A stretch of 64,000 nucleotides of DNA from Naegleria gruberi (taxonomy: Eukaryota). The stretch is taken from the NCBI GenBank assembly GCA_000004985.1, contig GG738854.1. One strand, written 5' to 3'. The position numbers and the translations under genes are program-made. A model generated the notes under the pieces. That model was not told the origin of the DNA, ran no database searches, and was given only the letters and a program-made list of their open reading frames with translations. This document shows, in pieces, positions 7,555-59,947 of this stretch. Within the stretch, counting starts at the first letter, position 1, and every line of letters starts with the position of its first letter.

Positions 7555-7846
7555 TTTTCAATGCAATGTACAACTGAACACACACTGTGTTGACAAAGAG
7601 AGAGATGGTGAGTAAAAGGTGGCAGCGTTTGATTTACTTACATTTTTTTCTATTTTGGTTTGCTCCATAATTGGCCCTCATTACATGTGACAGTAAAATG
7701 CAACAACTTTCTACAATGAAATGTTGGTAAGTTTAAATGAAATATTTATATTGTAGATATATCTGGAACAAACAATTCCAATAAAAACCATATATACTAT
7801 AAGAATAATAAGAACATTGAGGAGACGAGTTGCTCCTCCACATTTT

Positions 7847-9202
7847 TCAATCCAAATGATTATTATATTTATCAACTTGTGAACTCATATCATATAATAA
7901 TTGAGCTTGTTTATCCAAATCATCAGAAAATGAATTGGCAATTCCACCAACTTGTTGAATTTGACCAAGTAAAATATCTATTTTGATATCTTGAATAGCT
8001 TTAGCTTGTTCTATTTGTTCCAAACCTTCACTAATGTCAACTGAGGGAATTTCATTCTTTGCTTTTTGAAAACTTTCAACAGAATCAAATTTGACATTCT
8101 TTAGTTCAATATCATCATGGAGTTCTTCACCCATCATTAAGGTGTGTTTTGCTTGCACTAATTTACTGGAATCCATGAAATGTTGAATATCATTCTCTCT
8201 TTGCTTTCTCATTTGAAGCAGCATTTGAATTTCTTTCCATAATAAAGTTTTTTGAAAAGCTTGTTTATGAATTGTTATTAATTAATTCATTTCATCTTCC
8301 ATCTTTGAGATTGACTTTCTAATATCATTATTTAAACGAGCATTGCTAATTTGTCGTTCCTTTGTTTCTAATAAAGATTCGACTTTATCAATGGCAAGTT
8401 TAACATTAACTATTCAAGGTGTAAATGAAACTATAAATGTTATTATTTACCTTTTTGTTGTTCAAACTTGTCCAACTTTTTTAGTTTCTGTTGAAATTCT
8501 TTTTGTGTGTCTAATTGAGCACTTTCGACAACTTGTCCACAATCTATTCTAGGGAAGAAGGATAAATTACAGCACGCAGGGGGAGAGGGGGTCTTGGCCA
8601 AATTATTAAAATAAAAATTAAAAAATTAAAAAATAATAAATAAAATAGAATGATTTCATTTGCAAAAACCGCTACAAGATGACCGTTAAATATTCAACAA
8701 AAAAAAAACAACAATTACTCATCATGATTTCATCACCACCCTGCTAAATAACAACCTTCATCACGCTACCTTGATACCACCGGAGGAGAAGTTCTTTTGC
8801 TTCCTTCCACATCATAGCCAACATTCAACATCTGTCATTTACTTGAAGTTGTTGGTACATTGAAGTGAGGGTTCAGAACGAACACCAATCACACTTGGCC
8901 ATTGTTCAGAACCCAGAAAGTGCTTGTTGCTCGAAGAACAAGTGGTAATTGATACTTTGAACGCCCTGTTTTTCTCTTGGTCTAATAAAGACTTGTATTG
9001 TTAATAAACTTCTATCTATAACAAATCATGAAAAAAAATCATACAACACCCTCAGTTGGTAGGAGGGGGTTCCAGACGGCCAAAAAGTGTAATTTATCCT
9101 TCTTCCCCTAATCTGATAAAGTCGACGTAGTAGATCAGCCAAACCTGGTGAAGTTTGCATTAAATCTATTGTTTCTATAATGTTAGAATCTATGTCTGCC
9201 AT
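7847..9202 (-). CDS. Qc-SNARE (syntaxin-8/Tlg1-like) protein interrupted by a 546-bp TIR element. With the element removed the coding segments are 9202..9098, 8548..8451 and 8409..7847, with intron 8410..8450. This copy also has an in-frame TAA at 8282-8284.
   Basis: The C-terminal SNARE heptad motif is IEQAKAIQDIKIDILLGQIQQVGGIANSFSDDLDKQAQLLYDMSSQV. The upstream coiled-coil (Habc-like) reading NVKLAIDKVESLLETKERQISNARLNNDIRKS continues across a minus-strand gtaaat..gaatag intron. The ATG at 9202 (MADIDSNIIETIDL..LRRLYQIR) joins exactly in frame to IDCGQVVESAQLDTQKEFQQKL once 8552-9100 is deleted. No C-terminal TM segment was found. The paralogous copy at 58302-58789 has GAA instead of TAA at the equivalent position. 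Confidence 0.5.
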
Positions 9203-9706
9203 GTTATTTCTTTTTTTTAATTGTTTTGGTTCACTTGAGTTTGCTTTCGAATACAAATACTGATCTGGCCGAGTAAAAAAAAAATTGCTCCAAAGCAAAA
9301 ACCTTAAAAATAGATGGTTGTCATCAACTCGAATCTTAACAACAAATTCTTATTTGCCAGCCAACTTTCTTACCTACTAAGAGTATTAAAACCAATGTTT
9401 TTGAGTTTGGGTATAAAATATTGGAAGAACCTATGGACAACTGCCAATTCTATTTCATGTTATTGTGTTAGAGGAGAGTTTTACAAATATGGTTAGATTG
9501 AAATATCCTCAAGTAACATAATTTGTGACTGTAACCTTGGATAATAAGATTCTTTTGATAGTGGTAACCAGATCTAAAAATCTCAGAGGAAAAACAACTG
9601 AAATAAAAAATCCAACAACATGACATGGCCAACAACACAACAACAAACATGGAAACAACAAGGCTACATTGCATGTTGTATCATTCTTGTGTTATTGTGT
9701 TCAACA
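8060..9706. repeat. Copy A of a 1647-bp near-identical (about 99.7%) duplicated block. Copy B is at 58301-59947.
   Basis: The two copies sit at a constant offset of 50241 with no indels. Substitutions are seen at 8185 (g/t), 8220 (a/g), 8255 (a/t) and 8284 (a/c), plus the edge bases 8060 and 9706 next to the gaps. Confidence 0.9.
8552..9097. mobile_element. MITE-like non-autonomous DNA element, 546 bp, inserted in the SNARE coding exon. It has perfect 20-bp terminal inverted repeats (GGGAAGAAGGATAAATTACA) and a 3-bp CTA target-site duplication at 8549-8551 and 9098-9100.
   Basis: The arms at 8552-8571 and 9078-9097 are exact reverse complements. A direct CTA lies immediately outside each arm. 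The interior has a roughly 40%-GC non-coding core at about 8700-8958 that ends in a T-run, flanked by A/T-rich spacers. Excising the element plus one CTA restores a continuous ORF across the junction. Confidence 0.55.
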
Positions 9707-12700
9707 TGGCATGTAAATTCTTCAATTCAAGGACCTGTCAATTACTTTGTCAAGACAATTGAAGGCAATACATTTAATTTAGATACAGTGGAAGCAAAGT
9801 ATGCATACATGTTATCTCCATCAGGATTAAGTCTTGGACTAGATGATGATTTATTTGTTTCAGATATTGATAGACATTTAGTTTTTAGAATTTATGATAA
9901 TTTATCAACTGCTGAAGTTTATGCAGGTTTTGGAACTAGTGGATTTAATGGAGATGGTTTGTCAGCAATTGATACATTGTTTAATACACCTACAGCTATA
10001 TCAGTCAATCCACTAAATGGTGATTTGTATATTGCTGATACACTCAATAATAAGATTAGGATAGTTTCGAAAAACTCTAAAATAGTTTCATCAATTTCGC
10101 AGAGCACATTTAACAAACCGAGAGGAATTCATGTTTCTCCAAATGGATTTGTTTACATTGCTGATACTGAAAATAATTTAATTAAGAAATATGAAATTTC
10201 AACAAGACAAATTTCCATACTTGGTGGAGGTGGATATCTGAGTGGAGAATATAATGGAGTGGATGCAAAATTATTGAAATTACAATCACCAATGAATTTA
10301 TTTGTGGTTTCGAATGGAAAGAATGATATAGTTTATTTCACAGATGAAGAAAGAGTCAAGTCAATTGACGAAAATGGAATTTATAGAATGGTGGATGGTG
10401 GAATGCCTCAATCAAATTTGTAAGTTTGCTTCCAGCATGTGTTTACATTTATTCGAATTATTTCGTATAAAAATTAGATTTGGAATTTATGTTTCGGATC
10501 AAGGTGAAATATATACGTCATCACAAAAGAATCATTTCATTCAAATGAAATTAACAAAATCATCACAAACAAGTATTTTTATAGGAAGTTCTTCATCTGA
10601 AAGTGGATATAGTGGGGATAATCAGCAATTTAATTCACCCAACATCAAATTTTATGAACCATCTTCATTGGTTGTCACTCAAAATTCTATTCTAGTTGCA
10701 GATAAATCGAATAATTGTATTCGAAAGATTAATTTACAAGATATGATGGTTTCAACACTTGCAGGTGGACTTGTAAATCATGCAAATGGTGAAAATATTT
10801 CTCCGCTTAGTATGCATTCAATTGGAAATGCTCAATTTCCATTCAAGTATAAGAATGATTTGTATTTTGTGGAAAAAAACAATATTTTACGAAAGGTTTC
10901 GAATGGAAAGATGACAACTGTATTGGGATGTGAAAAATCACTAACTTATCCAGCAAACATTCCCCAACGTACCTTCGTTCTAATAATTTCATTATCTTAT
11001 GCTGGAAATGGAAATGTTATGTTTTTTGCAGGTCTAGAAAATTCACTTTACAATTTCAATCTGGATTCTCAAAACTTGACGCTTATCTCAAAACTTGATT
11101 ATTATACAACTTCATTTGCCTTAATTGGTGATTCAGTTCATAATGCAACAATTTATTATAGAACCGATTTGGGAAAAGTTTGTGTTTTTAAGAATTTAGA
11201 GGCAAATCCTTCATATTGTTTGTCCATTCCAGTAACAGGAGCTGTAGATCACATTATTGTGATTCCTGATTTTAGTTATAACGGAACAAATTCCATATTT
11301 TACTATTCAGATACTTATAATAGTATTAATGAATATATTGATTACAAGAATGGTTCAATGTCAACTCGCATAACACAATTGCCAACTGTTACATCATTTA
11401 GTGGATTTTCACACTATGATAGATATTTCTATTTTTGGAATATGGGACAAATTTATGAGATGCAAATGGACACTTACTCCATAAGAAAGTTTGCAGGAAT
11501 AGATGCCTTTAATGTTTCTAATACTTTAGTTTATGCCTTGGGTTACAATGGTGAAAATATACCTTTAAATAGTTCAGCTCTGTAAGTTTTTCATTCATGA
11601 ATAATTTCAAACATGGAAAGTTTTACACCAAGTACTACCAGAATAGGATCTGAAATATATGTCACCAGCCTTTATGGCATTAGTGAAATATCCAATGGAA
11701 GAATATTTACAATTGTTGGATTAACTCCAACCTCAAAAACGATAAGTCCACTCATCTTAATGAGAGATCCAATGAAAAAGATAATCTACTATATTGATCT
11801 TAGAACTTTAAAGCAATATGATGAGAATACAGGTATTTCAAAATCCTTGTCCACATCAATTTTCTCATCACCAGCCATTCCTTTCAATGATTCACCCTTT
11901 TTAATAATGAATACATATCCATTAAAACCGTTTGGACTATTCTCAACATTTGATAGGAAGATCTATTTTAAGGACAATTGTAGAATACTTCGAATTGATC
12001 CAGAAACATTGAATTTTGAAACTATTATTGGAAATTCTTGTTCAACTCTAGTTGCTGGAGTTAAGGTATGTTTTTGAGATTTACAATTTCTAAAATTGTT
12101 AGGGATTGGATTCAGGATGCCCTACGTTTCAAGAAATGAGTGGAATGACATTTGATCAGACCAATGGTGATATACTAATATCCTTAGAAAACTATAAGAT
12201 TTACAGATATAATTTACAAACACAAATGTTATCACTTGAATTTACATTTGCTACAAGTACTTCTTATTCTCCTGATGGCATAATAACTAATCAAACTTCT
12301 GTTGGGAAAATTACAAATATCCGACATCAAAATGGATATCTATATTTCAGTACAAGTGTTGCTATTAGAAGAATAGAAAAGTTATCTGATAATACATACT
12401 ATTTGAGAACTCTTGTTGGAAATTCAGAAAAAGGATATTCAGGAACCAATTTACCAGCACTTCAATCTTCTCTTGATACTCCTTCATCATTCTATGTGAA
12501 AAATAATGGTGATATTATAATTTTGGATGGTTCTGAAGCTTATTATGTCAGAATGTACCAGCAAAGAACTGGATTATTGATAGATATTGCAGGATCAAGA
12601 TCTATCTCTTCCAGATACAATGGAGATGGTTTTGTACCCTATCCAACCTTTTCATCTTTTTCAAAACAAGTTGATTTTGATGAAAGTAGTGGGGAAATTT

Positions 12701-14062
12701 TCCTTATTGATCTTAAATCCTATATACGTAAGATTACTCCAACTTGTAGTGGAAATTACACATTCAACATTATTAATACTACTTGTGATCTGTTAATTAG
12801 TTGTAATGGATCGATAGCAACAAGTGGATATGTTTGCAATGGTAATGGGGTCTGTTCTGATTTTGAAATCTGCCAATGTAATGATGGATTTGAAGGAAGA
12901 TATTGTGAAATTCAGAAAAGTCACCCATCAAGTGATTCTACAATTTTGATAGTCTCAATTGTAATTCCTATTATTGGATCAATATTATTGTTCACCGTTA
13001 TATTTGTGATTATTGTAATTTTAGTTTGTTTTTGCAGAAACAAAAAGAAGGAAAACTTTGAAATTGGTCAAATGGACACAAATAATATTGAGCTTTCAGA
13101 TAATACATTTCTTTCTACTAGTTCAAGAATAGTTTCATCCTCAGCCGGTTCCTCGGTAGAATCAGAGAATGATAGCCCATTTTCCAGATACTCAAATATT
13201 ACAAGAATAGGGCAAGGTGCTTTTGGAAGTGTTTTTAAAGTAACTGATACAAAGGATAGAAACAGACTGAAAGCAATCAAGCTTGTTAAATTTGAATCAT
13301 TGACTGATCTTAATACAATCATGAAAGAAGCTTCTCAATTGAGTTGTGTAAATCATCCAAACATTATCAAAATGAATGATTATTTCATCACCAATGACAA
13401 GTCGTTAATTATTGATATGGATTACTATGAAATGGGTGATTTGGCTCAGTTGAAACCAGAATATTGTACTGAGAAGCTTATCCAACAAATATTGAAGCAA
13501 TCACTAAGTGCTTTGAAATATGTACACGAGGAAATGAATATTATTCATAGGTATGTAATATTTCTCTCTTGCTTATTGAATTTAAATTTTGAAATAGAGA
13601 TATCAAACCAACCAATATTTTCATAAAGAAGTTGACTAGTGATAATATTGAGATTGTCTTGGCAGATTTTGGATTAGCCAAAAAGTATCAAGAGTCCAAA
13701 GGTCAATCATATGCTGGAACACCACTGTGTAAGTTTCAATAATTTTCATTTTCAACGAAATATGAAAAGTTATGAGTCCTGAAGTGGCTCTTGGTAGTTC
13801 ATACTCATTCAATACTGATATTTTCTCATTAGGAGTTTCCATATATCAAATTATGACGAATGATCGTGTAACTTCAATAAGCAACTTGTTGATGGGAAAT
13901 CAATCAGAAAATGCAACTAATATTTTAACGAATCAAATGAAAGAATCACCTAGTCAGGAATATTCTGATGAGTTGATTGAGATTGTTTTGAAAATGGTGG
14001 AAAAGGATTTGAATATTAGACCAAACGCCTCACAGTTACTTTCTCTCTCATATTTCAAATAA
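9620..14062 (+). CDS. NHL-repeat receptor-like Ser/Thr protein kinase: signal peptide, NHL repeats, EGF-like module, TM helix and kinase. The 6 exons are 9620..10419, 10478..11581, 11642..12065, 12103..13550, 13598..13728 and 13770..14062.
   Basis: The start is ATG at 9620 with a hydrophobic signal (ACCIILVLLCSTW). NHL-type repeats include LYIADTLNNKIRIV and VYIADTENNLIKKY. The EGF-like module is CNGNGVCSDFEICQCNDGFEGRYC and the TM helix is ILIVSIVIPIIGSILLFTVIFVIIVILVCF. The kinase motifs are GQGAFGSVFKV..AIKLV, IIHR|DIKPTNIF (split by an intron), DFGLAKK and MSPEVALG. The introns are 10420..10477, 11582..11641, 12066..12102, 13551..13597 and 13729..13769, each GTAAGT/GTATGT..AG with the frame preserved. 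Confidence 0.8.
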
Positions 14063-38009: not shown

Positions 38010-41000
38010 TTATGCAACATAATGTAATATTGAATTATTTTGTTCATCTCTTTTCAAAAAATCTCTTTCAAGTAAAGATTCAATTCTCTTCTTAATTTGT
38101 TTAACATCAGGAGTAAATATTGGAATTAATTGTGAACTAACTTCATTAAATAATGATTGAATATTCATTGTCTTTCTTGTTTTCATAATTCTAACAACAC
38201 ATGCATCTAAAATATGAACTCTATCTGTACTAACACTTGTTTGTGTACCTTGTGTATCTTTTTGTGTTATTCTTGGTAATGGAATTTTAAGTTTAAATGA
38301 TCGAGATGTAAAATTTTCATTCAATGAAAGTGTCATTTCCTTCTGATTAAATATTAAAATTGGAAATTTTGTTGATGATAATGAAATTATTGATTGTTTC
38401 AAATCAATATCTGAATTATTATTCAAATCAACTGTAGTATTACTTCCAAATGAACTTGATCTTTGATTCATTCCATTATTGGTACTATTATTATTATTGC
38501 TACTATTACTACTATTATTCTGATTAATTGTACCATCAAAATTTAAACCAGTTAAATCTTCAATTTGTTTAACAGATAATTGTAATTGATCATTAAAAAG
38601 TAATAAAATTGAAGCTTGTAAAGTAGAAAGTTCAAATAAATGATTACCATTAATATAATGAGCATGAATTTGAGCCATACTCTTTGAATAAACCCATTTT
38701 AAAACTCTTTTACCATTTCTAGAATCATAAAATTGTTTAAATAAATGTTGTGATTCTAAAAATTCCTTTGGAAGTAACATGTGTTCTTTTGCTTTTAAAG
38801 GCCACATTCCCATAGTTAAAACTGTAACATTAACATCATATGAAAGTTGTAATTGATTTGTTGTAATATAATTTTGAAATTCTAATTTCATATCATTGGC
38901 CATTGTTTTATCTGTTAACATTTTCTCTAATTTATAAGTATCAGCAACACCTCTATAATGATATTTTAATTTAGAAATCATCATTCTTTCTTCTAATTCT
39001 TGATAATCAGTTACTAATAATCTTATAGCAAATAATTTACGATGTTCTTCAATAAACATATCTCTATCTGAAAAGAATTGAATAAAATCAACAATACAAT
39101 CTAATTTCTTTTCATCACTCTTCTTTCTTAATACATCATCTGTATAATAGGCAAATAATTGTACAATTCTAATTTCAAATTGACCAAGTGTTATATTCTT
39201 ATTAACAAATTGTTTAAATCCTTCTGACATGGCCTTATGAAATATTACATTTCTTGAAAATGATCCATTTGTTATATTTTTCATCTTTTGATGAAGTTCT
39301 AATAAATCTTGAACATAGGAATCAATTAAAAATCTAACTACTTTACTATATACTTCATTAGATATTATATGAATATTATTATTAGATGTATTATTAGATG
39401 TATTATTATTATTTGATGTATTAGATGTACTACCATTATTATTACCATTATTATTATTATTATTTAAATTATTATCATTAGATTTAATCATTTCAGATGA
39501 AGCATTTTCATACTTGACAAATAATTCATTTCCAACAAAAATTAAATATTGTTTAAATAAATCAGCAATTGGATCTAAACCACCTTCTAATCTATTCATT
39601 AAACGATATAATCTTTTCAAATCATCAAATTTTTCATCTCTAATTAAAATTTTAACACCACTTCCACTCATTTCTAATAAACGTTTTTGCATATTTTTCA
39701 ATAATTCCAAATCACATAATTTCATTAACTTGTTTTGTGAAAAACTAGTTGGAAATATTGCTTGAATTCTAGTTTGTTCTTGTTGAATACATTCTTCAGC
39801 AAATAATAAATATTCTGTTAAATTATACTTTTCAATCCATTCATTAGCAATTTTATGATAAAATTCACTTGTTTCCTTCTCTGCATATTTTTCAAATTCA
39901 TCAACATAGACCTCACTTGTTGAATGTTGTTGTTGTTGTTGTTGTGTAGATGATGATGATAATTGATTTGATGTTGAATCAATAATCATATTATCATTAT
40001 TACTGCTTGTACCACCACTGCTTGTACCAATATTATTACTTTGTGTAGTATTAGTATTAGTAGTATTATTATTATTATTATTAGCATGATGAAGACCACC
40101 TGTATTTAAAGTAATATTTGGATCATCCATTTCAGAAAATAATTGTAAAGTTTGTTTTAATAATTGTCTTTGTGAAATGTAATAAGAATTATCGGAATTA
40201 TAAAATTTACGATCTTGTGTAATTTTATCAAGTAAAATTTGTCTTAATTGAACTTTACAATGATCAAATATACTTGTTTTAAATAAATAATAAGCTTCAT
40301 ATTTTAAAGTTCTTTTAGTATTTGAAGCAACATAAAATTGATCTAAATATTTAAATATATAGGAACAAAATTTTACAAAAATGTCTCTAAAATTAATCCA
40401 AATAAAAACAATTTCATTTAATAAATCTTCTCCATATTTATCTTTTAATTTTGGTAATATTGTTGTTTGTAAATATTTTTTAATATAAATTGAATATAAA
40501 TTATATAATTGTTCTTCATAATAAACTGAATCAGGTAAAATACATAAATTATATATAGTTGTAAATAATAATACATGTTCATCATTCTCCCATGGTTTTA
40601 ATTCATTCAAATTTTGACTTTCTCTTTTACCATTTACAAATGTTTCTAATTTTTTTAAACTTTTATAAATTTCATACCAAGTTTCACGTAATTTTTGACT
40701 TCTTGTTTGATCATTTGTATTATTAGTTGTAGTATTATTAGTATTATTACCATTATTAATAGTGGATGGAGTTGTTGAACTTGTTCCACCACTACTACTA
40801 CTAGTAGCAGTGATAGTATTATTATTATTATTAGAATTATTATTAGAATTATGATTAATTTGATGAGAATTGGTTGGAGTATGATGAAGATGACTATTTG
40901 GAGTTGAAGAATTTGGTTGAATGGGTGGTTTCTTTTGAGGAGTAGAAGGATTTGAATTAATTGATTGATTTCCTAGATTAGTTGGTGGTTGTTGTAAAAA

Positions 41001-41990
41001 GAAAGGAGGTAAATTTGATGAAGAATTTGATCTTAATCTATTTTGTAAAGTATTTTGTAAATTTGGATTTGTAATAGGAATAGGTGGTATTGGTAAATTA
41101 TTAGAAGAAGAATTTGATCTCAATCTTTGATTTGGAATTAAATTACTAGGTGTTGGAATAAATAAATTAGGAGTTATAGTTGGATTAGGATAAGGAATAT
41201 TTCCACTATTAGAAGTATTTGAATTTGATCGATTTCTTTGAGCTGCAGCTGCTGCTTGTAAAAAAGGTGGAGTTGTAAATAAGAAATTATTCATTGATAG
41301 AGGTGGTAAATTTGAAATATTTGGAATTCCATTAATTGTTGGAATAAGTGGAAGATTTGGATGATTCAAGTTTGGTTGTGGATTTAAAGTTGGTTGACTA
41401 GTTGTTGGTAATTGAGTTGAATTATTATTAGGTATTATTGAGGTAGAAGTTATTGGATTGGTCATGTGAAGAAGATTTGGAATTGTTGGATTAATAGTAT
41501 TAATTGGAATATTTGTTGAAGTAGTACCATTAGCATTGATATGATTTGGAATTTGACTTGTTGATTGTTGTTGTTGTTGAGGATTAATTTTAGGCTTTTT
41601 TAATGCTTGTTCAAAATTTTGTTGCTGAAGTCTGATAGAGGAGTTATTTATAGATTGTGAGGGTTGTGCTTGATTATTAATTAATGATGAAGTAATCCCA
41701 GCATTTGATTGAATTCGGTTATGATGACTATTAGATGGTATCGTACTATTAGTATTGTTGTTATTATTGATTGGTATCATCATTGGATTACTGTTGACAG
41801 TTGCTTGATGAGAAGGTTGATGGAAGGCATGTTGTTGGGTCAAAATTTGAGTTGATGTTGAATTTATAGTATTATTACTAGTATTATTTACTGTTCCTAT
41901 AGGAGGTTCATCGGTTTGATGTGATGAATTGGTTGACGATGATGATGTTTGTTGCTGATCCTTTAGATGATCTTCGTAGGTTCTCTTCAT
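38010..41990 (-). CDS. Cullin-family protein, 1326 aa, with a 600-700-aa low-complexity (Asn/Gln/Ser/Thr/Pro-rich) N-terminal extension. Single exon.
   Basis: ATG is at 41990. The C-terminal cullin-homology and neddylation region is VVRIMKTRKTMNIQSLFNEVSSQL..IKKRIESLLERDFLKRDEQNNSILHYVA. Cullin-repeat-like segments occur in the middle (KLEKMLTDKTMANDMKLEFQNY). Confidence 0.8.
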   Translation of the reverse strand: MKRTYEDHLKDQQQTSSSSTNSSHQTDEPPIGTVNNTSNNTINSTSTQILTQQHAFHQPSHQATVNSNPMMIPINNNNNTNSTIPSNSHHNRIQSNAGITSSLINNQAQPSQSINNSSIRLQQQNFEQALKKPKINPQQQQQSTSQIPNHINANGTTSTNIPINTINPTIPNLLHMTNPITSTSIIPNNNSTQLPTTSQPTLNPQPNLNHPNLPLIPTINGIPNISNLPPLSMNNFLFTTPPFLQAAAAAQRNRSNSNTSNSGNIPYPNPTITPNLFIPTPSNLIPNQRLRSNSSSNNLPIPPIPITNPNLQNTLQNRLRSNSSSNLPPFFLQQPPTNLGNQSINSNPSTPQKKPPIQPNSSTPNSHLHHTPTNSHQINHNSNNNSNNNNNTITATSSSSGGTSSTTPSTINNGNNTNNTTTNNTNDQTRSQKLRETWYEIYKSLKKLETFVNGKRESQNLNELKPWENDEHVLLFTTIYNLCILPDSVYYEEQLYNLYSIYIKKYLQTTILPKLKDKYGEDLLNEIVFIWINFRDIFVKFCSYIFKYLDQFYVASNTKRTLKYEAYYLFKTSIFDHCKVQLRQILLDKITQDRKFYNSDNSYYISQRQLLKQTLQLFSEMDDPNITLNTGGLHHANNNNNNTTNTNTTQSNNIGTSSGGTSSNNDNMIIDSTSNQLSSSSTQQQQQQHSTSEVYVDEFEKYAEKETSEFYHKIANEWIEKYNLTEYLLFAEECIQQEQTRIQAIFPTSFSQNKLMKLCDLELLKNMQKRLLEMSGSGVKILIRDEKFDDLKRLYRLMNRLEGGLDPIADLFKQYLIFVGNELFVKYENASSEMIKSNDNNLNNNNNNGNNNGSTSNTSNNNNTSNNTSNNNIHIISNEVYSKVVRFLIDSYVQDLLELHQKMKNITNGSFSRNVIFHKAMSEGFKQFVNKNITLGQFEIRIVQLFAYYTDDVLRKKSDEKKLDCIVDFIQFFSDRDMFIEEHRKLFAIRLLVTDYQELEERMMISKLKYHYRGVADTYKLEKMLTDKTMANDMKLEFQNYITTNQLQLSYDVNVTVLTMGMWPLKAKEHMLLPKEFLESQHLFKQFYDSRNGKRVLKWVYSKSMAQIHAHYINGNHLFELSTLQASILLLFNDQLQLSVKQIEDLTGLNFDGTINQNNSSNSSNNNNSTNNGMNQRSSSFGSNTTVDLNNNSDIDLKQSIISLSSTKFPILIFNQKEMTLSLNENFTSRSFKLKIPLPRITQKDTQGTQTSVSTDRVHILDACVVRIMKTRKTMNIQSLFNEVSSQLIPIFTPDVKQIKKRIESLLERDFLKRDEQNNSILHYVA

Positions 41991-42411: not shown

Positions 42412-44883
42412 TTAAGCAACGTAATGGTAAATACAATTTGCACTACCTGCTTGTGAATTATTATCTCTTTCTAAATATTCTCTGTCAATTAAACTTTCAA
42501 TTCTCTTCTTTACATCTTGACCTTGAATTGAAAAACGAACTTGAGATAAAACTTCAGTTAATAATTGTTGATGTGTTAATTGTTTTCTTGTTTTCATAAT
42601 TCTAACAATTGCTGCATCAATAACATAGGAACGATCCAATAAAACTTTTTCAGTTGTTTCTTCTCTTTCTTTCTTTGTTTCTTTCAATTGGAATGAATCA
42701 ATTTTAATCTTTGTTTTTGATTGTGAATAATCTTCATTAACAAAGAAAATATCATTCTCTTCAACTTGAGTTCCTTTAGTTTCTTTCTTAAGAATTTTTT
42801 CCTTATGGAATGCTAATGATTGTAAAGTTAAAATTAATTGTTTTTCATCTTGAATTCCTGTTGATTGTTTAAGTTCTCGTACAGAAATCTTTTCTTTAGA
42901 ATTGAATTGTAATAATACAACTGCTTGATAGAATGATATTATCAATTCCTTTTTACCACATGGGAATAAGGCTTTCATTGAACATTGTCCCAAGTTTGAA
43001 ACCCATTTCAAAATACGTCCAGAATATTTGTGTGTATAAAAATCTCTAAATGAATCTTGTAATAATGAAAGTTCCATTGGTAAATTTAAAGTATCAGGTG
43101 TATAATTTGGCCAATAACTCAATGTTAATACTTTAACACCGAGGGAGGATGCAATTTGAAGTGCTCTATCCTTTTCTTCACCTACTTCATTGATAAATTT
43201 CTTAAATTCTGCACTAGTTTCATATCCTTTCATTAATTCCGCTGAAATATCAATATCTTTAAACATTCCTTCTAATTTGTTTGAGAATTGTGTACCACAT
43301 TCTGCTCTCAATTTAGAAATCATTGTCTTTTCTGCATCATATGATGAAGTCTTTCCAAATAATAATCTTTTACCCAAATCCTTCTTATAAAATGCTTCAA
43401 ATATATCTTTACCATTAATATATTTGAAAATTGTTAGAGCATTATCCATACATCTTTCTAATTCATCATCTGTTAAACCCTTACTATTCTTTAATTTTCC
43501 ATCAATATATTTTGCAATAAGTTCACTTGGTTTGTTAGGAACAATATTTAAGAAATATTCAAAGGCTTTTCTTATAGCATGTTTAAATTCTTCATTCTTA
43601 TGGAAAGATTGTTCATGTAATTGATCAATTTTACTCTTAAATTGAAGAGTATCTTGAACCATATTTTTATCATTTTGATCATCATCAACAATTCTTTTAC
43701 CTCTAATCTTTAAATAGACTGTAAATGCTTCTTTAATTGCATCAAGTTCATTGACTAATTTAAATAATCCATACATTCTATTAAGATCCATAATACGATT
43801 AAGATCCATTAATTCTTCAAATCCTTTATCTAAAATTGTTTTAACATGTTTCTTTATCAATTCATTTTCTACTATTTGTATAAGAGGTTTCTTTGTTAAT
43901 TTACTTAAATAATTTGTAACTCTATCAACTTCTTGTCTTAATCTAGATTCAACATATTGTAAATATTCTGGTACATTTAATTTATCAATATTATTTAAAC
44001 CATCATTAGAATAAAATGATCTAGTTTCTTCTAAAAATGATTTTTCAAATTCATCTTCATATAAATGTAAAGATGTTAACATTCTAATTAAACGTTGAAC
44101 AACTGATTTATCAATACTTTCTCCACTTCTTTCATGTTTAATTAAAATTAAAATCCCAGATATTATTTTTTTAAGTAAATGTTCATTAATCTTTAAATTT
44201 TGTTTAAATATTTGTAAATTCATATCCCAAATAGATTTATCTGGTATTGTCATTACATAAGACCTATCTAAATATAAGAAAATAGATCTTATCATATTAA
44301 TTTGATCAGTGAATTCTTCCCAACTTTTAACTACAATATTTAAAAATGTTGTGTGATCTGTTGTTGCTTTATGTCCTAAATCATAAATTACATTTTCAAT
44401 ATGTTTAGAACAAAGTAATTTCAATTTGGAATAGGTACTTTCTGATTTTTTATGTCTTGCCAAATCGGAACAAAGTTGATAAAGTTCTTCTTGTCCAGTA
44501 CAAATTTTCTCCTTTTTTTGAATGGCAACAACAGCGTTATTTAACTTGTTCCATGTTTCTTCTTCAAAGTTAGATACTGTCGGTTTTAAAGACAGAGGTT
44601 TGATTTTAAGACAAGTTATCTTTTTCTTTGTTGGTGTAACTGAAGGTGATGGATTTGTTAAACCTCCTCCTGTTGATGCTGTTGTATTGTTTTTAGTAAA
44701 TCCACTTGTTGATGGTATTGTTGTAGTCATTTTAGGCTTTGGAATTTCGACAACTTCTTCTTCGTCCTCAATTATAATGGTATGATGATAGGCTTTGGTT
44801 TTTTTAGTTTGATCGGATTGTAAGTCAAGATTAGCTTGAGGTTGTTTTCTTTTCTTTGATGATGATATGGCGAAGGTAGACAT
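42412..44883 (-). CDS. Canonical cullin (Cul1/Cul3-like), about 823 aa, single exon. It lies tandem to the preceding cullin.
   Basis: The ATG at 44883 is preceded by an in-frame TTG. Cullin motifs include LEGMFKDIDISAELMKGY, IDAAIVRIMKTRKQLTHQQLLTEVLSQVRF and KKRIESLIDREYLERD..IYHYVA. Confidence 0.85.
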   Translation of the reverse strand: MSTFAISSSKKRKQPQANLDLQSDQTKKTKAYHHTIIIEDEEEVVEIPKPKMTTTIPSTSGFTKNNTTASTGGGLTNPSPSVTPTKKKITCLKIKPLSLKPTVSNFEEETWNKLNNAVVAIQKKEKICTGQEELYQLCSDLARHKKSESTYSKLKLLCSKHIENVIYDLGHKATTDHTTFLNIVVKSWEEFTDQINMIRSIFLYLDRSYVMTIPDKSIWDMNLQIFKQNLKINEHLLKKIISGILILIKHERSGESIDKSVVQRLIRMLTSLHLYEDEFEKSFLEETRSFYSNDGLNNIDKLNVPEYLQYVESRLRQEVDRVTNYLSKLTKKPLIQIVENELIKKHVKTILDKGFEELMDLNRIMDLNRMYGLFKLVNELDAIKEAFTVYLKIRGKRIVDDDQNDKNMVQDTLQFKSKIDQLHEQSFHKNEEFKHAIRKAFEYFLNIVPNKPSELIAKYIDGKLKNSKGLTDDELERCMDNALTIFKYINGKDIFEAFYKKDLGKRLLFGKTSSYDAEKTMISKLRAECGTQFSNKLEGMFKDIDISAELMKGYETSAEFKKFINEVGEEKDRALQIASSLGVKVLTLSYWPNYTPDTLNLPMELSLLQDSFRDFYTHKYSGRILKWVSNLGQCSMKALFPCGKKELIISFYQAVVLLQFNSKEKISVRELKQSTGIQDEKQLILTLQSLAFHKEKILKKETKGTQVEENDIFFVNEDYSQSKTKIKIDSFQLKETKKEREETTEKVLLDRSYVIDAAIVRIMKTRKQLTHQQLLTEVLSQVRFSIQGQDVKKRIESLIDREYLERDNNSQAGSANCIYHYVA

Positions 44884-45300
44884 CAAAAACTATTACTATT
44901 AGATTTTCTAGAATGGACTAAATTGGTTTAACAACATCAAAATCCTAACTAGTAAAACTATTGAAAAATAACCCTAATAATAATAACAATAATATAATAC
45001 TACTATGGTAGGGTACAGAGAATGTGTTTCCTGTTGTTGTTGATGTATTTTTTTAAATAAGTTTTTCTTCGGAAGTAATTTTAGAGTGCATGTTATTCCG
45101 CCCTCACTTTGGATTTTAAAGCCTTCAATTCAATTGAGGATCTTTGAATAATATTATTATAAAATTGATAATTTAAAATTGATAAAGAACTCTTTTTAAT
45201 TGAAATATAACATTATTAATTGATAAAGAACTCTAAAATTGAAATATTATAATAAACATTAAAATAACATATATTTATAAACAAATTAAAACAATAATAT

Positions 45301-46762: not shown

Positions 46763-49700
46763 ATGTCTCAGTGGGTTTCTGTTAACAAGTATGGTATTGG
46801 TATGTTTATTATTATTATCTATTTCTCATCTTTAATTTGCGCCTTTACAATTCTAATAACAACAACAACAACAACAATTTATAAACTACAAAATCATCAC
46901 TATATAACTTCATCAACATCAACATTATACCATCAATCAAACACTCTATATTAATGCTCTGTTATTATTATTAACAACAATAATAATAATAATTATCAAA
47001 ATCTAGTTGTTGATTCATTCAATAGCAAACAATATCAACAACATCAACATTTATTAGATTTAAATGTTGGTGATCTTGTGTATATTAAAGCAGAGAGAGA
47101 TGGATGGTGTAAAGGAAGTGTATTTAGAAATCGTTACATTCTCAAATATAAGAATTCACTACTTGGATATTCTACATTAGATAATAATTCATCATCATCA
47201 TCCAACACATCCGCATCAACAACATCAACAGAGAATGATGGTGCTAATTTAAACAATGATCAAGATGATCAACAATCAAGAACATCAAATAATGCTCAAC
47301 TCAATGCAGGATCAACTGAAGGTATTAAAACAGCATTGGATTTTAATGTGAGTGGAATGAATACATTTCCAATAGCTAAGGGTTTCTTTCCATCTGGTTG
47401 TATTAAGAGGATAGAAGAGAAGAGTGATAAACAATCTATTCTACCAGGTGGCTCAAGTACAGGTACAACATCATCAGGTCTGAGTTCTGGTTCATTGGTT
47501 GGTGGTAGTTCATTGATTGGTGTTGGAGGTGGTATTGGTAGTGGTATTGGTGGTGGTGGTATTGGTATTGGAGGTGGTATTGGAGGTGGTGGTGGTTCAT
47601 TAACTTCTGGTAATTCTGGTAATTCACAAAATAATTATCTTCAAGGTTTAACCAATGATAAGAATAGAGGTGGTGATAAAACACTTGTTGATTCAACACC
47701 ATTGGCAGGTATTATTTCTAGGGCAGGTAAAGCAAATAATTTAACATTTATCGATGAAATTGATTCAAGAGAATTTGAAGAATCTAAATATGGATTCTTT
47801 GAAGAGAAGGATTTTGAAGTTGAACATTGTTTTGATTTAATACAAGTAACAGAGGAATGGTTAGCATTCTTTGATGGATCTAGAGAGAGAATGGAAATTG
47901 TTGATAGAGATCAATTTGATAGAATTTATGAAATTTTAACAAGAATATTCTTTGATATTAAAGAATATGCAAGACATTGTGATTTATTAAAGGTAATGAA
48001 AGAGAAGGGTGGAAGTGATGGTATTGCAAAGATTGAATCAAAATTACTTAAATTTCAAAATAATGATATCAAACTTGTAGAAGAAGGTTGTAATGTACTT
48101 TTATATGATATTATTATTAGAAAGAAGGGTAAAATTTTAGATGATTTAATGCAAATGGATCAATTTGTTACCAATAATAATTTAGATTCTTCTCAACAAT
48201 CCAAACAACAAACTACAAGTACTACTACACAAACTAAATCTGCTACTTCAACTACTACTTTAACAAATGTAAATTCAACAAACAATTCACAAGAAGTATC
48301 CTCAACAAAAACACTCAAATCCAGATTGAGTTTTACACTTGTTGAACAAGTTAGAAAGGTAGTTGATGCCAAAACAGGTGGATTTTCCTCTACATTATTA
48401 TCAACCTCATCAACAGTAACAACCATTGTTAAGGTATTTAGAAATTATGTTCAAACTTGTGAGAGAGAACTTGAAGCACTTCAAGAGAGAAGACAAAAGA
48501 GAGTTAAAAATCATGCCAAGAAGGAAACAACAGTTAGTGGTAAAATGGGTGGTGCATTGGGAAGATTGGGATTTCCATTTCATTTGAATGATGTTCTCGA
48601 TGATACAACACATACAGCCAGTGGTGATGATAGTAAACAATTTTATCATTTACCAGATGGTAATACACAATTAATGGTTGCACTTGAAAATTGTGTCATT
48701 GATTCAGAACATCGATTTGAATTGGAAATTTCACTCTACAGTAAGAAGGCAGAACAAATTATTAGTGAAAATTTTATTTTACAAATGTCATCTGCCTCTG
48801 AAAAGAATTTAAATCCATCATCTAAAACCAATCTAGAAAGAAGATGTATCATTAAGGATATAACAAGTAGTGATATTAAGGAAGATTTGTACTTTGTTTT
48901 CAGATTGTACAGAGTTGGACCTGTTTTAATCGATGAAAAAAATAAGAAGGCAACTGCATCAGCTGATGTAGGTGATGTTAAAAGACCATTCGGTGTTGCC
49001 ATTGCAGATATTAATCCAAATGTAATTAATAATATTGTAACAGGTGAAAATGTTAATCTTCCTAAAATTAGTGCATTTGCAACAACAAAGGAAGAAAATT
49101 TCTATTCACTCCATCAATTATTAATCAAATTAACAAATGAACATGGTGGTCAAATTCCTTCAGATTTACCAAAAGATGTTTCAAAAATTCAGGAAATTAA
49201 GGATTTAACAATTTCACTTGGAATGTTAATTGGTGATTATGAACAACAAGTTTTTTCAAAGGAAAATTTAAAATCAAGACCAGTCATTCAAATGTTAAGA
49301 TTTCCAAGTGCTGTTTCACCTGGTGATAGACGTAATGATATTTATATTACATTAGAAGGTTTAGCTTCATCTGTTAAAGAATTGAAAAATGTTCTAGTTG
49401 AAGCTGAATTGTATCAAGTACCACAATCAATTTCAATCAAAAATCCACCAATTCATTCTGAAACACGTCCAATGATACCTCTCTCTACAAATCCAAATGA
49501 ATTTAATAGTGGTAATTTACCTTCTTCACTTCCACAAGAAAAGAGAAAATTATTCACCTCCACTGTTTTATATCACATCAAAAATCCAAAATGGAAAGAA
49601 ACATTTAGAGTTAGTGTTGAACCTGATTTAATTGATAGATCTATTGTTGTATTTAAATTATTTAATTGTAGATCACGTCATGCAACGAAGGAACTTGTTG

Positions 49701-58250: not shown

Positions 58251-58300
58251 NNNNNNNNNNNNNNNNNNNNNNNNNNNNNNNNNNNNNNNNNNNNNNNNNN
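58251..58300. other. Assembly gap (50 N).
   Basis: A run of n characters. Confidence 1.
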
Positions 58301-59947
58301 GGCTTTTTGAAAACTTTCAACAGAATCAAATTTGACATTCTTTAGTTCAATATCATCATGGAGTTCTTCACCCATCATTAAGGTGTGTTTTGCTTGCACT
58401 AATTTACTGGAATCCATGAAATGTTTAATATCATTCTCTCTTTGCTTTCTCATTTGAAGCGGCATTTGAATTTCTTTCCATAATAAAGTTTTTTGTAAAG
58501 CTTGTTTATGAATTGTTATTAATTCATTCATTTCATCTTCCATCTTTGAGATTGACTTTCTAATATCATTATTTAAACGAGCATTGCTAATTTGTCGTTC
58601 CTTTGTTTCTAATAAAGATTCGACTTTATCAATGGCAAGTTTAACATTAACTATTCAAGGTGTAAATGAAACTATAAATGTTATTATTTACCTTTTTGTT
58701 GTTCAAACTTGTCCAACTTTTTTAGTTTCTGTTGAAATTCTTTTTGTGTGTCTAATTGAGCACTTTCGACAACTTGTCCACAATCTATTCTAGGGAAGAA
58801 GGATAAATTACAGCACGCAGGGGGAGAGGGGGTCTTGGCCAAATTATTAAAATAAAAATTAAAAAATTAAAAAATAATAAATAAAATAGAATGATTTCAT
58901 TTGCAAAAACCGCTACAAGATGACCGTTAAATATTCAACAAAAAAAAAACAACAATTACTCATCATGATTTCATCACCACCCTGCTAAATAACAACCTTC
59001 ATCACGCTACCTTGATACCACCGGAGGAGAAGTTCTTTTGCTTCCTTCCACATCATAGCCAACATTCAACATCTGTCATTTACTTGAAGTTGTTGGTACA
59101 TTGAAGTGAGGGTTCAGAACGAACACCAATCACACTTGGCCATTGTTCAGAACCCAGAAAGTGCTTGTTGCTCGAAGAACAAGTGGTAATTGATACTTTG
59201 AACGCCCTGTTTTTCTCTTGGTCTAATAAAGACTTGTATTGTTAATAAACTTCTATCTATAACAAATCATGAAAAAAAATCATACAACACCCTCAGTTGG
59301 TAGGAGGGGGTTCCAGACGGCCAAAAAGTGTAATTTATCCTTCTTCCCCTAATCTGATAAAGTCGACGTAGTAGATCAGCCAAACCTGGTGAAGTTTGCA
59401 TTAAATCTATTGTTTCTATAATGTTAGAATCTATGTCTGCCATGTTATTTCTTTTTTTTAATTGTTTTGGTTCACTTGAGTTTGCTTTCGAATACAAATA
59501 CTGATCTGGCCGAGTAAAAAAAAAATTGCTCCAAAGCAAAAACCTTAAAAATAGATGGTTGTCATCAACTCGAATCTTAACAACAAATTCTTATTTGCCA
59601 GCCAACTTTCTTACCTACTAAGAGTATTAAAACCAATGTTTTTGAGTTTGGGTATAAAATATTGGAAGAACCTATGGACAACTGCCAATTCTATTTCATG
59701 TTATTGTGTTAGAGGAGAGTTTTACAAATATGGTTAGATTGAAATATCCTCAAGTAACATAATTTGTGACTGTAACCTTGGATAATAAGATTCTTTTGAT
59801 AGTGGTAACCAGATCTAAAAATCTCAGAGGAAAAACAACTGAAATAAAAAATCCAACAACATGACATGGCCAACAACACAACAACAAACATGGAAACAAC
59901 AAGGCTACATTGCATGTTGTATCATTCTTGTGTTATTGTGTTCAACC
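58301..59947. repeat. Copy B of the 1647-bp duplicated block (equals 8060-9706), bounded by gaps on both sides.
   Basis: Base-for-base collinear with copy A at an offset of 50241, apart from 4 internal substitutions and 2 edge bases. It includes the 3' part of the SNARE gene, the TIR element (arms 58793-58812 and 59319-59338) and the first 87 nt of the NHL-kinase CDS (ATG 59861). Confidence 0.9.
58302..58789 (-). CDS. Copy B of the Qc-SNARE gene, partial. Exons are 58692..58789 and 58302..58650 (3' end lost in the gap). It lacks the premature stop of copy A.
   Basis: The ORF 58241..58543 reads MEDEMNELITIHKQALQKTLLWKEIQMPLQMRKQREND.. straight through the position where copy A has TAA. Intron 58651..58691 is as in copy A. 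Confidence 0.45.

What the first reader, a model, noticed from the sequence alone, without database searches (positions are those of the whole stretch)
7847..9298. A 546-bp TIR element with a CTA target duplication sits inside the coding exon of a Qc-SNARE gene, and deleting it restores a continuous ORF
Seen in sequence: a perfect 20-bp inverted repeat, GGGAAGAAGGATAAATTACA at 8552-8571 and its reverse complement at 9078-9097, is flanked directly by CTA on both sides (8549-8551 and 9098-9100). In a genome of about 25% GC a 20-bp perfect inverted repeat 500 bp apart cannot be chance. On the minus strand, ATG 9202 opens MADIDSNIIETIDLMQTSPGLADLLRRLYQI(R). Removing 8552-9100, that is the element plus one CTA copy, joins this exactly in frame to IDCGQVVESAQLDTQKEFQQKL... 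and onward to the SNARE motif. That is the signature of a cut-and-paste DNA transposon (a MITE, with a PIF/Harbinger- or Tc1-like 3-bp or TA duplication) landing in an exon. The element also brings a pyrimidine tract plus AG (ccttcttccctag) at one end and a GTATGA at 9044 near the other. It could therefore be removed as a 496-nt intron with in-frame exonisation of 21 codons (GRRINYTFWPSGTPSYQLRVL). In that case the gene may still be functional. The interior contains a 260-nt core of about 40% GC that ends in a T-run. That is atypical for dictyostelid non-coding DNA and might be a captured Pol III-type transcription unit. Dictyostelid DNA-transposon/MITE families are poorly catalogued, so this may be an undescribed family.
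Basis: partly seen in the sequence, partly recalled or inferred. Interest (0 to 1): 0.75.

Follow-up and report, generated by a model that had tools for sequence, protein, structure and literature searches.

The report
Small transposon inside decaying SNARE gene
A 556-bp non-coding cut-and-paste transposon, with perfect 20-bp inverted ends and a 3-bp target duplication, sits in the first coding exon of a Naegleria-type SNARE gene copy that also carries a frameshifting 29-bp deletion, so this is a clearly documented but ordinary insertion into a gene that is probably already dead.

Summary
The arms are 8552-8571 and 9088-9107, the element is 556 bp (not 546), and CTA lies at 8549-8551 and 9108-9110. 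Removing 8552-9110 restores ...RRLYQIR|IDCGQVV.... This motif is uninterrupted in Naegleria gruberi, N. lovaniensis, N. fowleri and Willaertia proteins. It is also uninterrupted in N. lovaniensis DNA (ATTAGAAT against the reconstructed ATTAGAAT). It is therefore a genuine insertion of a non-autonomous TIR element with a target-site duplication.

The host is a heterolobosean of the Naegleria lineage, not a dictyostelid. Window GC is 30%.

The second copy at 58793-59348 is not an independent insertion. It lies in a redundant 1647-bp contig that repeats 8061-9705, flanks included.

The SNARE gene is a fast-evolving paralogue. It has a 29-nt frameshifting deletion that cuts off the end of the SNARE motif and the membrane anchor. 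The main scaffold also has a TAA codon. Rescue by splicing is therefore unlikely to matter, although the in-frame GTATGA...CCCTAG option does exist.

Nothing supports a Pol III unit: there are no tRNA, Rfam or protein matches. Copy number and superfamily could not be tested.

Verdict: a new member of a known kind, of low interest.

The parts
8549..8551 (.). Left copy of the target-site duplication, CTA (TAG on the gene strand).
   Evidence: Read directly. The orthologous empty site in N. lovaniensis has a single TAG (ATTAGAAT).
8552..9107 (.). 556-bp non-coding TIR element (MITE-like). GC is 36.5% overall, with an AT-rich stretch at 8600-8700 (17% GC) and a core at 8700-8980 of 40.6% GC.
   Evidence: No ORF exceeds 57 codons. 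No Rfam or tRNA hit. No protein hit for any frame.
8552..8571 (+). Left terminal inverted repeat, GGGAAGAAGGATAAATTACA.
   Evidence: 100% complementary to 9088-9107.
9088..9107 (-). Right terminal inverted repeat.
9108..9110 (.). Right copy of the target-site duplication, CTA.
9111..9202 (-). 5' part of SNARE exon 1. ATG is at 9202-9200, and it encodes MADIDSNIIETIDLMQTSPGLADLLRRLYQI(R).
   Evidence: It aligns to the conserved PGMADLFRRLYQIR of the Naegleria proteins.
8451..8548 (-). 3' part of SNARE exon 1, encoding IDCGQVVESAQLDTQKEFQQKLKKLDKFEQQK.
8410..8450 (-). 41-nt GT..AG intron at a position shared with N. lovaniensis, where the intron is about 340 nt.
7847..8409 (-). SNARE exon 2, running up to the premature TGA at 7847-7849. 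It contains the SNARE motif but lacks its last layers.
8282..8284 (-). In-frame TAA in the main scaffold. The redundant contig reads GAA (Glu), which is the conserved residue.
   Evidence: Orthologues have E here.
7851..7852 (-). Junction of a 29-nt deletion relative to the orthologues (position good to 1-2 nt). It shifts the frame and creates the TGA immediately after HLD.
   Evidence: DNA alignment, protein alignment.
7711..7848 (-). Out-of-frame remnant of the linker and transmembrane anchor (EKCGGATRLLNVLIILIVYMVFIGIV...). It is still recognisably conserved.
9039..9044 (-). Cryptic 5' splice-site candidate GTATGA inside the element. Paired with the acceptor AG at 8549-8550 it gives an in-frame 496-nt intron.
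   Evidence: The local 5' splice-site consensus is GTAAGT/GTATGT. Use of this site is not demonstrated.
58301..59947 (.). Redundant 1647-bp contig between N runs. It is 99.76% identical to 8061-9705 and includes the element (58793-59348), the same flanks and the same CTA copies. It is not an independent insertion.

Best explanation
The 556-bp segment at 8552-9107 is a non-autonomous class II (TIR, cut-and-paste) transposon of MITE size. A transposase supplied in trans, and not present in this window, would bind the two perfect 20-bp terminal inverted repeats. It would make a staggered cut at the target 5'-CTA-3' (TAG on the gene strand) and integrate the element. Repair of the stagger then duplicated the 3 bp.

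The landing site is codon 32/33 of the first coding exon of a Qc-type SNARE gene in a heterolobosean of the Naegleria lineage. It lies inside the most conserved N-terminal motif, RRLYQIR|IDCG.

An unspliced transcript would read from Arg32 through 26 element-encoded codons to a stop. The host gene copy is a fast-evolving paralogue that is probably already non-functional, because a separate 29-nt deletion shifts the frame before the end of the SNARE motif and cuts off the membrane anchor.

Shown here: the TIRs, the duplication, the uninterrupted site in related species, the lack of coding capacity and the frameshift.

Inferred: the transposase class (a 3-bp duplication fits PIF/Harbinger-like elements best, and Zator or Academ are also possible), mobilisation in trans, multi-copy status, and the order in which the gene's lesions arose.
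For: - The 20/20 inverted repeat is far beyond chance: 0.01 matches are expected in shuffles even when 3 mismatches are allowed.
- CTA directly flanks both ends.
- Removing the element plus one CTA gives a continuous ORF.
- The restored junction lies inside a motif that is contiguous in all six full-length homologues from N. gruberi, N. lovaniensis, N. fowleri and Willaertia.
- N. lovaniensis and N. fowleri-like DNA is uninterrupted at the site. It reads TATCAAATTAGAATTGATTGCGG against the reconstructed TATCAGATTAGAATAGATTGTGG, and there is no intron there.
- The downstream intron position is shared, which confirms the homology.
- The element has no long ORF, no protein match in any frame, and no Rfam or tRNA match.
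- It is not E. coli or plasmid DNA.
- It was assembled twice, in two contigs.
- Gene decay: a clean 29-nt gap in the DNA alignment; the window protein fails Pfam SNARE while its homologues hit it; 55 of 165 columns invariant in the homologues are changed or missing; it sits on a long branch next to N. gruberi P0001; and the main copy has a TAA.
Against: - Only one independent insertion is visible. The second copy shares its flanks, so it is a redundant contig or a segmental duplicate. Repetitiveness, a defining property of a transposon family, is therefore not shown.
- No related autonomous element or transposase was found. The neighbouring ORFs scanned encode ordinary cellular domains.
- The duplication could be read as TA with a one-base asymmetry at the ends, so the 3-bp call is only the more parsimonious reading.
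- CTA/TAG is not the usual TWA target of PIF/Harbinger elements (from established knowledge, not tested here).
- The TAA codon, and conceivably part of the frameshift, could be assembly errors. All four differences between the two contigs cluster within 100 bp, and the redundant contig always carries the conserved residue.
Confidence: 0.75

Rival explanations
1. The element behaves as a new spliceosomal intron, an introner-like outcome. The polypyrimidine end of the TIR plus the TAG duplication gives a 3' splice site (CCTTCTTCCCTAG|). An internal GTATGA, 63 nt inside the element, serves as the 5' site. A 496-nt intron is removed, 21 extra codons are kept, and the SNARE remains expressed.
For: The combination of donor at 9044 and acceptor at 8549 is in frame and free of stops. 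Its donor is the closest of the 18 in-frame options to the local consensus GTAAGT/GTATGT. Non-autonomous TIR/TSD transposons are known to become introns in other eukaryotes (PMC9860276).
Against: - No GT lies at or next to the 5' boundary (AG|GGGAAG), so precise removal is impossible.
- The 21 added residues would sit inside the most conserved N-terminal motif.
- The six introns seen in the window, five read and the 41-nt intron of this gene, are about 35-55 nt, so 496 nt is roughly tenfold longer.
- With 18 in-frame GT..AG pairs available, finding one with a decent donor is not surprising.
- The gene has an independent 29-nt frameshift that removes the membrane anchor. Splicing would therefore not restore a normal SNARE.
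- No other copies are known to sit in introns.
Confidence: 0.1
2. The same kind of element, but mobilised by a Tc1/mariner- or pogo-type transposase with a TA duplication. The ends would then be GGGAAG...CTTCCCC, with one extra base on one side, and it would be a Stowaway-like rather than a Tourist-like MITE.
For: The flanks are ...TTC[TA]GGGAAG...CTTCCCC[TA]ATC. A TA duplication gives the same empty site as a CTA duplication. TA is the commonest MITE target (established knowledge).
Against: This reading makes the otherwise perfect termini asymmetric by one base. With CTA, the 20-bp arms end flush against the duplication. No transposase is available to decide between the two.
Confidence: 0.2
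3. An artefact. The segment is an assembly chimera or a bacterial insertion sequence acquired during cloning, not part of the organism's genome.
For: The region shows signs of assembly trouble: a redundant 1647-bp contig at the scaffold end and four clustered base differences.
Against: - The element with identical junctions occurs in two separately assembled contigs.
- It has no similarity to 5,426 E. coli genomes or 72,556 plasmids.
- It has no transposase and is AT-rich, like its host.
- A perfect duplication of a target that is single-copy in orthologues is the footprint of real transposition.
Confidence: 0.03
4. The interior is a captured Pol III-type small RNA gene, carried by the TIRs.
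For: The core is 40.6% GC against a 30% background and is followed by a T5 run.
Against: ARAGORN finds no tRNA-like structure. No Rfam family scores better than E=0.2, and all hits fall far below their gathering scores. The fold z-score of -2.7 is driven by the TIR stem. T5 runs are common in 30% GC DNA.
Confidence: 0.03

Closest known systems
Tourist-like MITEs, the non-autonomous derivatives of PIF/Harbinger transposons
   Same: Short (under 800 bp), non-coding, with perfect terminal inverted repeats that begin with GG, a 3-bp target-site duplication, and insertion in or near genes.
   Different: The target here is CTA/TAG rather than the usual TAA/TTA. No autonomous partner with a DDE transposase and a Myb-like ORF has been identified. 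Copy number is unknown. The host is a heterolobosean.
Stowaway-like MITEs, the non-autonomous derivatives of Tc1/mariner transposons
   Same: Small TIR element. The insertion site contains TA, and a TA duplication is formally compatible with the flanks.
   Different: A TA reading requires a one-base asymmetry of the termini. The ends do not resemble the CTCCCTCC-type Stowaway ends (from memory, not tested).
Introners: TIR/TSD transposons that create spliceosomal introns on insertion (Gozashti et al. 2022, PMC9860276)
   Same: A non-autonomous TIR/TSD element inside a coding exon. One end plus the duplication forms a good 3' splice site, and an in-frame donor exists.
   Different: There is no splice donor at the 5' terminus. 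Removal would leave 21 foreign codons. No evidence exists for splicing or for sister copies that act as introns. The host gene is frameshifted elsewhere.
Qc-SNAREs of the syntaxin 6 / syntaxin 8 / SNAP-29 C-helix type (the host gene)
   Same: A profile of the Naegleria family matches the syntaxin 6, SNAP-29 and syntaxin 8 SNARE helices best. Gln occupies the zero layer (DKQAQLL). The homologues are tail-anchored.
   Different: The window's copy lacks 29 nt that encode the last layers, ends at a premature TGA, has its anchor out of frame, and fails the Pfam SNARE model.

Membership tests
Non-autonomous TIR DNA transposon (MITE) | Terminal inverted repeats at both ends | tested here: met
   20/20 complementary arms at 8552-8571 and 9088-9107.
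Non-autonomous TIR DNA transposon (MITE) | Target-site duplication that flanks the TIRs and is single-copy at an empty site | tested here: met
   CTA lies on both sides. Orthologous DNA in N. lovaniensis and N. fowleri-like contigs has a single TAG in ATTAGAAT.
Non-autonomous TIR DNA transposon (MITE) | Small size and no coding capacity | tested here: met
   556 bp. The longest stop-free stretch is 57 codons. No protein hit in six frames.
Non-autonomous TIR DNA transposon (MITE) | Multiple dispersed copies with different flanks in the same genome | not testable with these tools
   The only second copy shares its flanks. The source genome is not searchable. The TIR 20-mer gave 3 isolated single-arm hits in metagenomes and none in viral or prokaryotic collections.
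PIF/Harbinger-derived (Tourist-like) | 3-bp target-site duplication | tested here: inconclusive
   CTA (3 bp) is the most parsimonious reading. TA with asymmetric ends cannot be excluded from one copy.
PIF/Harbinger-derived (Tourist-like) | Target preference TWA (TAA/TTA) | tested here: not met
   The duplicated triplet is CTA/TAG. The TWA rule comes from general knowledge of the superfamily.
PIF/Harbinger-derived (Tourist-like) | An autonomous relative with matching TIRs that encodes a DDE transposase and a Myb-like protein | not testable with these tools
   None is in the window. Ten of the larger ORFs were scanned against Pfam and none encodes a transposase domain (six carry ordinary cellular domains, four have no match); the others were judged only by eye from their translations. 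The genome is not searchable.
Introner (intron-generating transposon) | Splice donor and acceptor at or created by the element termini, so that insertion yields a removable intron | tested here: not met
   The 3' end gives CCTTCTTCCCTAG|, but the 5' junction is AG|GGGAAG with no GT. The nearest usable donor is 63 nt inside the element.
Introner (intron-generating transposon) | Many near-identical copies annotated as introns, with transcript evidence of splicing | not testable with these tools
   No genome or RNA data are available for the source organism.
Qc-SNARE (host gene) | SNARE heptad motif with Gln at the zero layer and closest similarity to Qc helices | tested here: inconclusive
   The family profile hits syntaxin 6 (E=0.0014), SNAP-29 and syntaxin 8. 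Homologues hit PF05739 around its threshold. The window copy itself gives no PF05739 hit.
Qc-SNARE (host gene) | Intact motif followed in frame by a C-terminal transmembrane anchor | tested here: not met
   A 29-nt deletion is followed by TGA straight after HLD, and the anchor is in the +1 frame.

The most novel reading that the evidence does not exclude
The element belongs to an uncatalogued MITE family of a Naegleria-lineage amoeboflagellate. Its pyrimidine-rich TIR end plus a TAG target creates a ready-made 3' splice site, and this copy is in fact spliced out (9044 to 8549). That would be a transposon-born intron caught at birth in Heterolobosea, a group in which no introners were found in the literature searched here.
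Probability: 0.06. Interest if true: 0.55.

Novelty: new member of a known kind. Interest (0 to 1): 0.22.

Why it matters
The locus gives an exact, orthologue-verified example of a DNA-transposon insertion in a heterolobosean genome, with boundaries, target and empty site all defined. The 20-bp TIR can seed a genome-wide search for the family and for its transposase. It also flags this SNARE locus as a likely pseudogene or mis-assembled region that should not be annotated as a functional trafficking gene. Beyond that it is an ordinary event. Transposon insertions into decaying gene copies are expected, and nothing here points to a new mechanism.

Tried and rejected
- The second copy in the window (58793-59348) looked like family evidence. 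I rejected it because it sits in a 1647-bp contig between N runs that repeats 8061-9705, flanks included.
- The TIR 20-mer was scanned against metagenome, viral and prokaryote-genome collections. It gave three isolated single-arm hits with no further similarity and no partner arm, which is about what chance predicts, and zero hits elsewhere. Two core 22-24-mers also gave nothing.
- A sensitive BLASTN of the element against the window and the fetched Naegleria loci found no diverged copies.
- Rfam at a permissive E-value and ARAGORN found nothing credible.
- All six-frame stop-free peptides of the element were searched against 5.8 billion proteins, with no hit at E<=1.
- E. coli genomes and plasmids were searched to exclude a cloning artefact, with no match.
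- Exact-protein look-ups to name the source genome failed.
- A scan for other TIR pairs in the window returned only AAT-type low-complexity repeats.
- Literature searches for Naegleria MITEs, Harbinger elements or introners found nothing specific.
- The dictyostelid attribution was rejected on the homology evidence.
Full report
**1. The observation**

Reading 7600-9500 and the repeat finder show a perfect 20-bp inverted repeat, GGGAAGAAGGATAAATTACA. It lies at 8552-8571, with its reverse complement at 9088-9107. The correct values are CTA at 9108-9110, an element of 556 bp, and a frame-restoring deletion of 8552-9110.

CTA directly abuts both arms, at 8549-8551 and 9108-9110. With up to three mismatches allowed, the 20-mer is expected 0.01 times in dinucleotide shuffles of the window and occurs four times. 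The repeat is not chance.

Removing the element plus one CTA gives a single open frame, MADIDSNIIETIDLMQTSPGLADLLRRLYQIRIDCGQVVESAQLDTQKEFQQKLKKLDKFEQQK. The window is 30.1% GC, not about 25%.

**2. The second copy is not independent**

Two of the four TIR matches lie at 58793-58812 and 59329-59348. A self-BLAST shows that 58302-59946 is 99.76% identical to 8061-9705. This stretch sits in a 1647-bp contig bounded by a 50-N gap (58251-58300) and the terminal N run (59948-64000). The 756 bp around the element are 100% identical, flanks and CTA copies included.

This is therefore either a redundant contig (an allele or a read-error contig) or a very recent segmental duplicate. It gives no second target site. 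It does show that the junctions were assembled twice.

**3. The host is not a dictyostelid**

The reconstructed protein finds only eight relatives in 5.8 billion proteins. Every hit that carries an organism name is heterolobosean:
- N. gruberi, 61% identity;
- N. lovaniensis, two paralogues;
- N. fowleri;
- Willaertia magna.

The other three hits are unnamed Logan or ENA contigs. Two of them, P0002 and P0007, are 77-100% identical to the Naegleria proteins. The adjacent ZIP transporter ORF also has N. lovaniensis as its best hit, at 49%.

Exact-sequence look-ups for two window ORFs and for N. gruberi P0001 returned nothing, so I cannot name the species. A neighbour-joining tree puts the window protein beside the N. 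gruberi-type sequences on a very long branch.

**4. Orthologues give the empty site**

In the alignment, the junction falls inside PG(M/L)ADL(F/L)RRLYQIR|IDCG. This motif is contiguous in all six full-length homologues.

At the DNA level, N. lovaniensis (L004) encodes this stretch in one exon and has no intron there. Its sequence, TATCAAATTAGAATTGATTGCGG, matches the reconstructed empty site, TATCAGATTAGAATAGATTGTGG, almost base for base. It contains one TAG where the window has two TAGs separated by the element. The next intron, after FE(R/Q)QK, is at the same position in both genomes: 41 nt here and about 340 nt in N. lovaniensis.

This is direct comparative evidence for an insertion with a target-site duplication.

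**5. Anatomy of the element**

- It has no ORF longer than 57 codons.
- A concatenate of every stop-free peptide from all six frames finds no protein at E<=1.
- Rfam at a permissive threshold gives only noise, far below gathering scores, and ARAGORN finds no tRNA.
- The single-strand fold is dominated by the TIR stem.
- GC is 17% at 8600-8700 and about 40% at 8700-8980.

A richer core followed by T5 is not evidence for a Pol III gene, and I reject that idea.

The element does not match E. coli genomes or plasmids, so it is not a cloning-host insertion sequence or vector DNA. No diverged copy is present elsewhere in the window or in about 46 kb of Naegleria loci. No other non-trivial TIR pair exists in the window. 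Ten of the larger ORFs were scanned against Pfam and none shows a transposase domain; the others were only read by eye.

**6. State of the host gene**

Compared with its homologues, the window copy shows these differences:
- It lacks about 40 N-terminal residues and 5 residues after the insertion site.
- It shows a clean 29-nt gap in a DNA alignment with N. lovaniensis and N. fowleri-like sequences...CATTTGG[29 nt]ATTGAAAAA....

Because 29 is not a multiple of three, the frame shifts. A TGA follows HLD immediately (7847-7849). The still-recognisable anchor, EKCGGATRLLNVLIILIVYMVFIGIV, is left in the +1 frame at 7711-7848. A single deletion explains both the missing residues and the shift, so a real mutation is more likely than a sequencing error.

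The window protein fails the Pfam SNARE model, while its homologues score 19.5-27.1 bits against a 26.8-bit threshold. It differs from or lacks 55 of 165 columns that are invariant in six homologues. By the same leave-one-out test, Willaertia, a different genus, changes 28 of 193.

The main scaffold also has an in-frame TAA at 8282-8284. The two contigs differ at four positions (8185, 8220, 8255, 8284), all within 100 bp and all non-synonymous. At each one the redundant contig carries the residue conserved in the orthologues. That pattern fits either low-quality consensus in the main scaffold or a decaying allele. I cannot decide which.

Overall the gene looks like a rapidly diverging paralogue that lost function recently. 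Long stretches are still open, and the anchor is still conserved although out of frame.

**7. Can splicing rescue it?**

I enumerated every GT..AG pair that restores the frame without stops and found 18. Its donor is the closest to the local consensus. Six introns are visible in the window, five read and the 41-nt intron of this gene. The five use GTAAGT or GTATGT, this gene's own intron starts GTAAAT, and all are only about 35-55 nt long.

Several points argue against functional rescue:
- There is no GT at the element boundary.
- The intron would be about tenfold longer than local introns.
- The 21 foreign residues would lie in the most conserved N-terminal motif.
- The independent frameshift lies downstream.

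Introners built from TIR/TSD elements are known in other eukaryotes (PMC9860276). Searches linking Naegleria with introners or MITEs found nothing specific. I keep this as a low-probability rival.

**8. Mechanism and classification**

The best-supported reading is a non-autonomous cut-and-paste element mobilised in trans.

The TIRs, the duplication, the empty site and the lack of coding capacity are shown. The transposase class is inferred. A 3-bp duplication points to PIF/Harbinger-like elements, with Zator or Academ as alternatives. CACTA is excluded because the termini are GGG rather than CACTA. The CTA/TAG triplet is not the usual TWA target. A TA duplication with a one-base terminal asymmetry would give the same empty site. 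One copy cannot settle this.

Family membership in the sense of multiple dispersed copies could not be tested, because none of the DNA collections available covers the source genome. The TIR 20-mer gave only three isolated hits in metagenomes, with no partner arm or internal similarity, and none in viral or prokaryotic collections.

**9. Verdict**

This is a correct and careful observation with a 10-bp coordinate slip, a wrong taxon and an over-optimistic functional reading. What is there is a MITE-like transposon insertion, verified against orthologous empty sites, in a SNARE gene copy that carries a second inactivating lesion of its own. It is a new member of a known kind. It is useful for annotation and as a seed for transposon discovery in this genome, but not surprising.

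Noticed in passing
window 58251-58300, 58301-59947, 59948-64000: The scaffold ends with a 50-N gap, a 1647-bp contig that duplicates 8061-9705 at 99.76% identity, and then 4053 N. It could be a haplotig, a read-error contig or a true 50-kb-distant segmental duplicate, and this is unresolved.
   Followed up: partly
window 8185, 8220, 8255, 8284: The only four differences between the two copies are spaced 29-35 bp apart within 100 bp. All are non-synonymous. In every case the main scaffold carries the non-conserved residue (one is a TAA stop), and the small contig carries the residue conserved in Naegleria orthologues.
   Followed up: yes
window 8410-8450 and L004 about 8290-8630: The intron after FE(Q/R)QK is at the same position in the window gene and in N. 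lovaniensis, but it is 41 nt here against about 340 nt there. The other introns seen in the window are also very short (35-55 nt, GTAAGT/GTATGT).
   Followed up: partly
window 36000-58250: GC falls from about 33% in the left half to 17-28% in the right half. The large ORFs there (38010-41990, 47078-54193, 56317-58250) are full of AAT-encoded poly-Asn and poly-Gln tracts. I did not check whether both halves come from the same genome.
   Followed up: no
window 38010-41990 and 42412-44886, minus strand: Two adjacent, same-strand ORFs whose C-terminal stretches resemble each other (...VRIMKTRK...KKRIESL..., both ending in HYVA). They look like a tandem pair of diverged paralogues; by eye they resemble cullins, but no domain search was run on them. 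The first is much expanded by low-complexity inserts.
   Followed up: no
window 9620-13626, plus strand: Four consecutive ORFs separated by gaps of about 30 nt. The first contains NHL repeats. The last has a hydrophobic stretch followed by what looks by eye like a kinase-type sequence. They appear to form one long gene, possibly for a receptor-kinase-like protein, transcribed divergently from the SNARE gene.
   Followed up: no
window 8572-8600 and 9060-9087: Just inside both TIRs, the plus strand carries a similar G-rich motif in direct rather than inverted orientation (GGGGGTCTTGGCC and GGGGGTTCCAGACGGCC). It could be a subterminal binding site or coincidence.
   Followed up: no
L002 640-662 (metagenome contig Ga0115846_102799, 33% GC): An exact 20-mer TIR match extends to 23 of 24 bases in an AT-rich metagenome contig. 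There is no partner arm and no internal similarity, so it is probably chance.
   Followed up: partly
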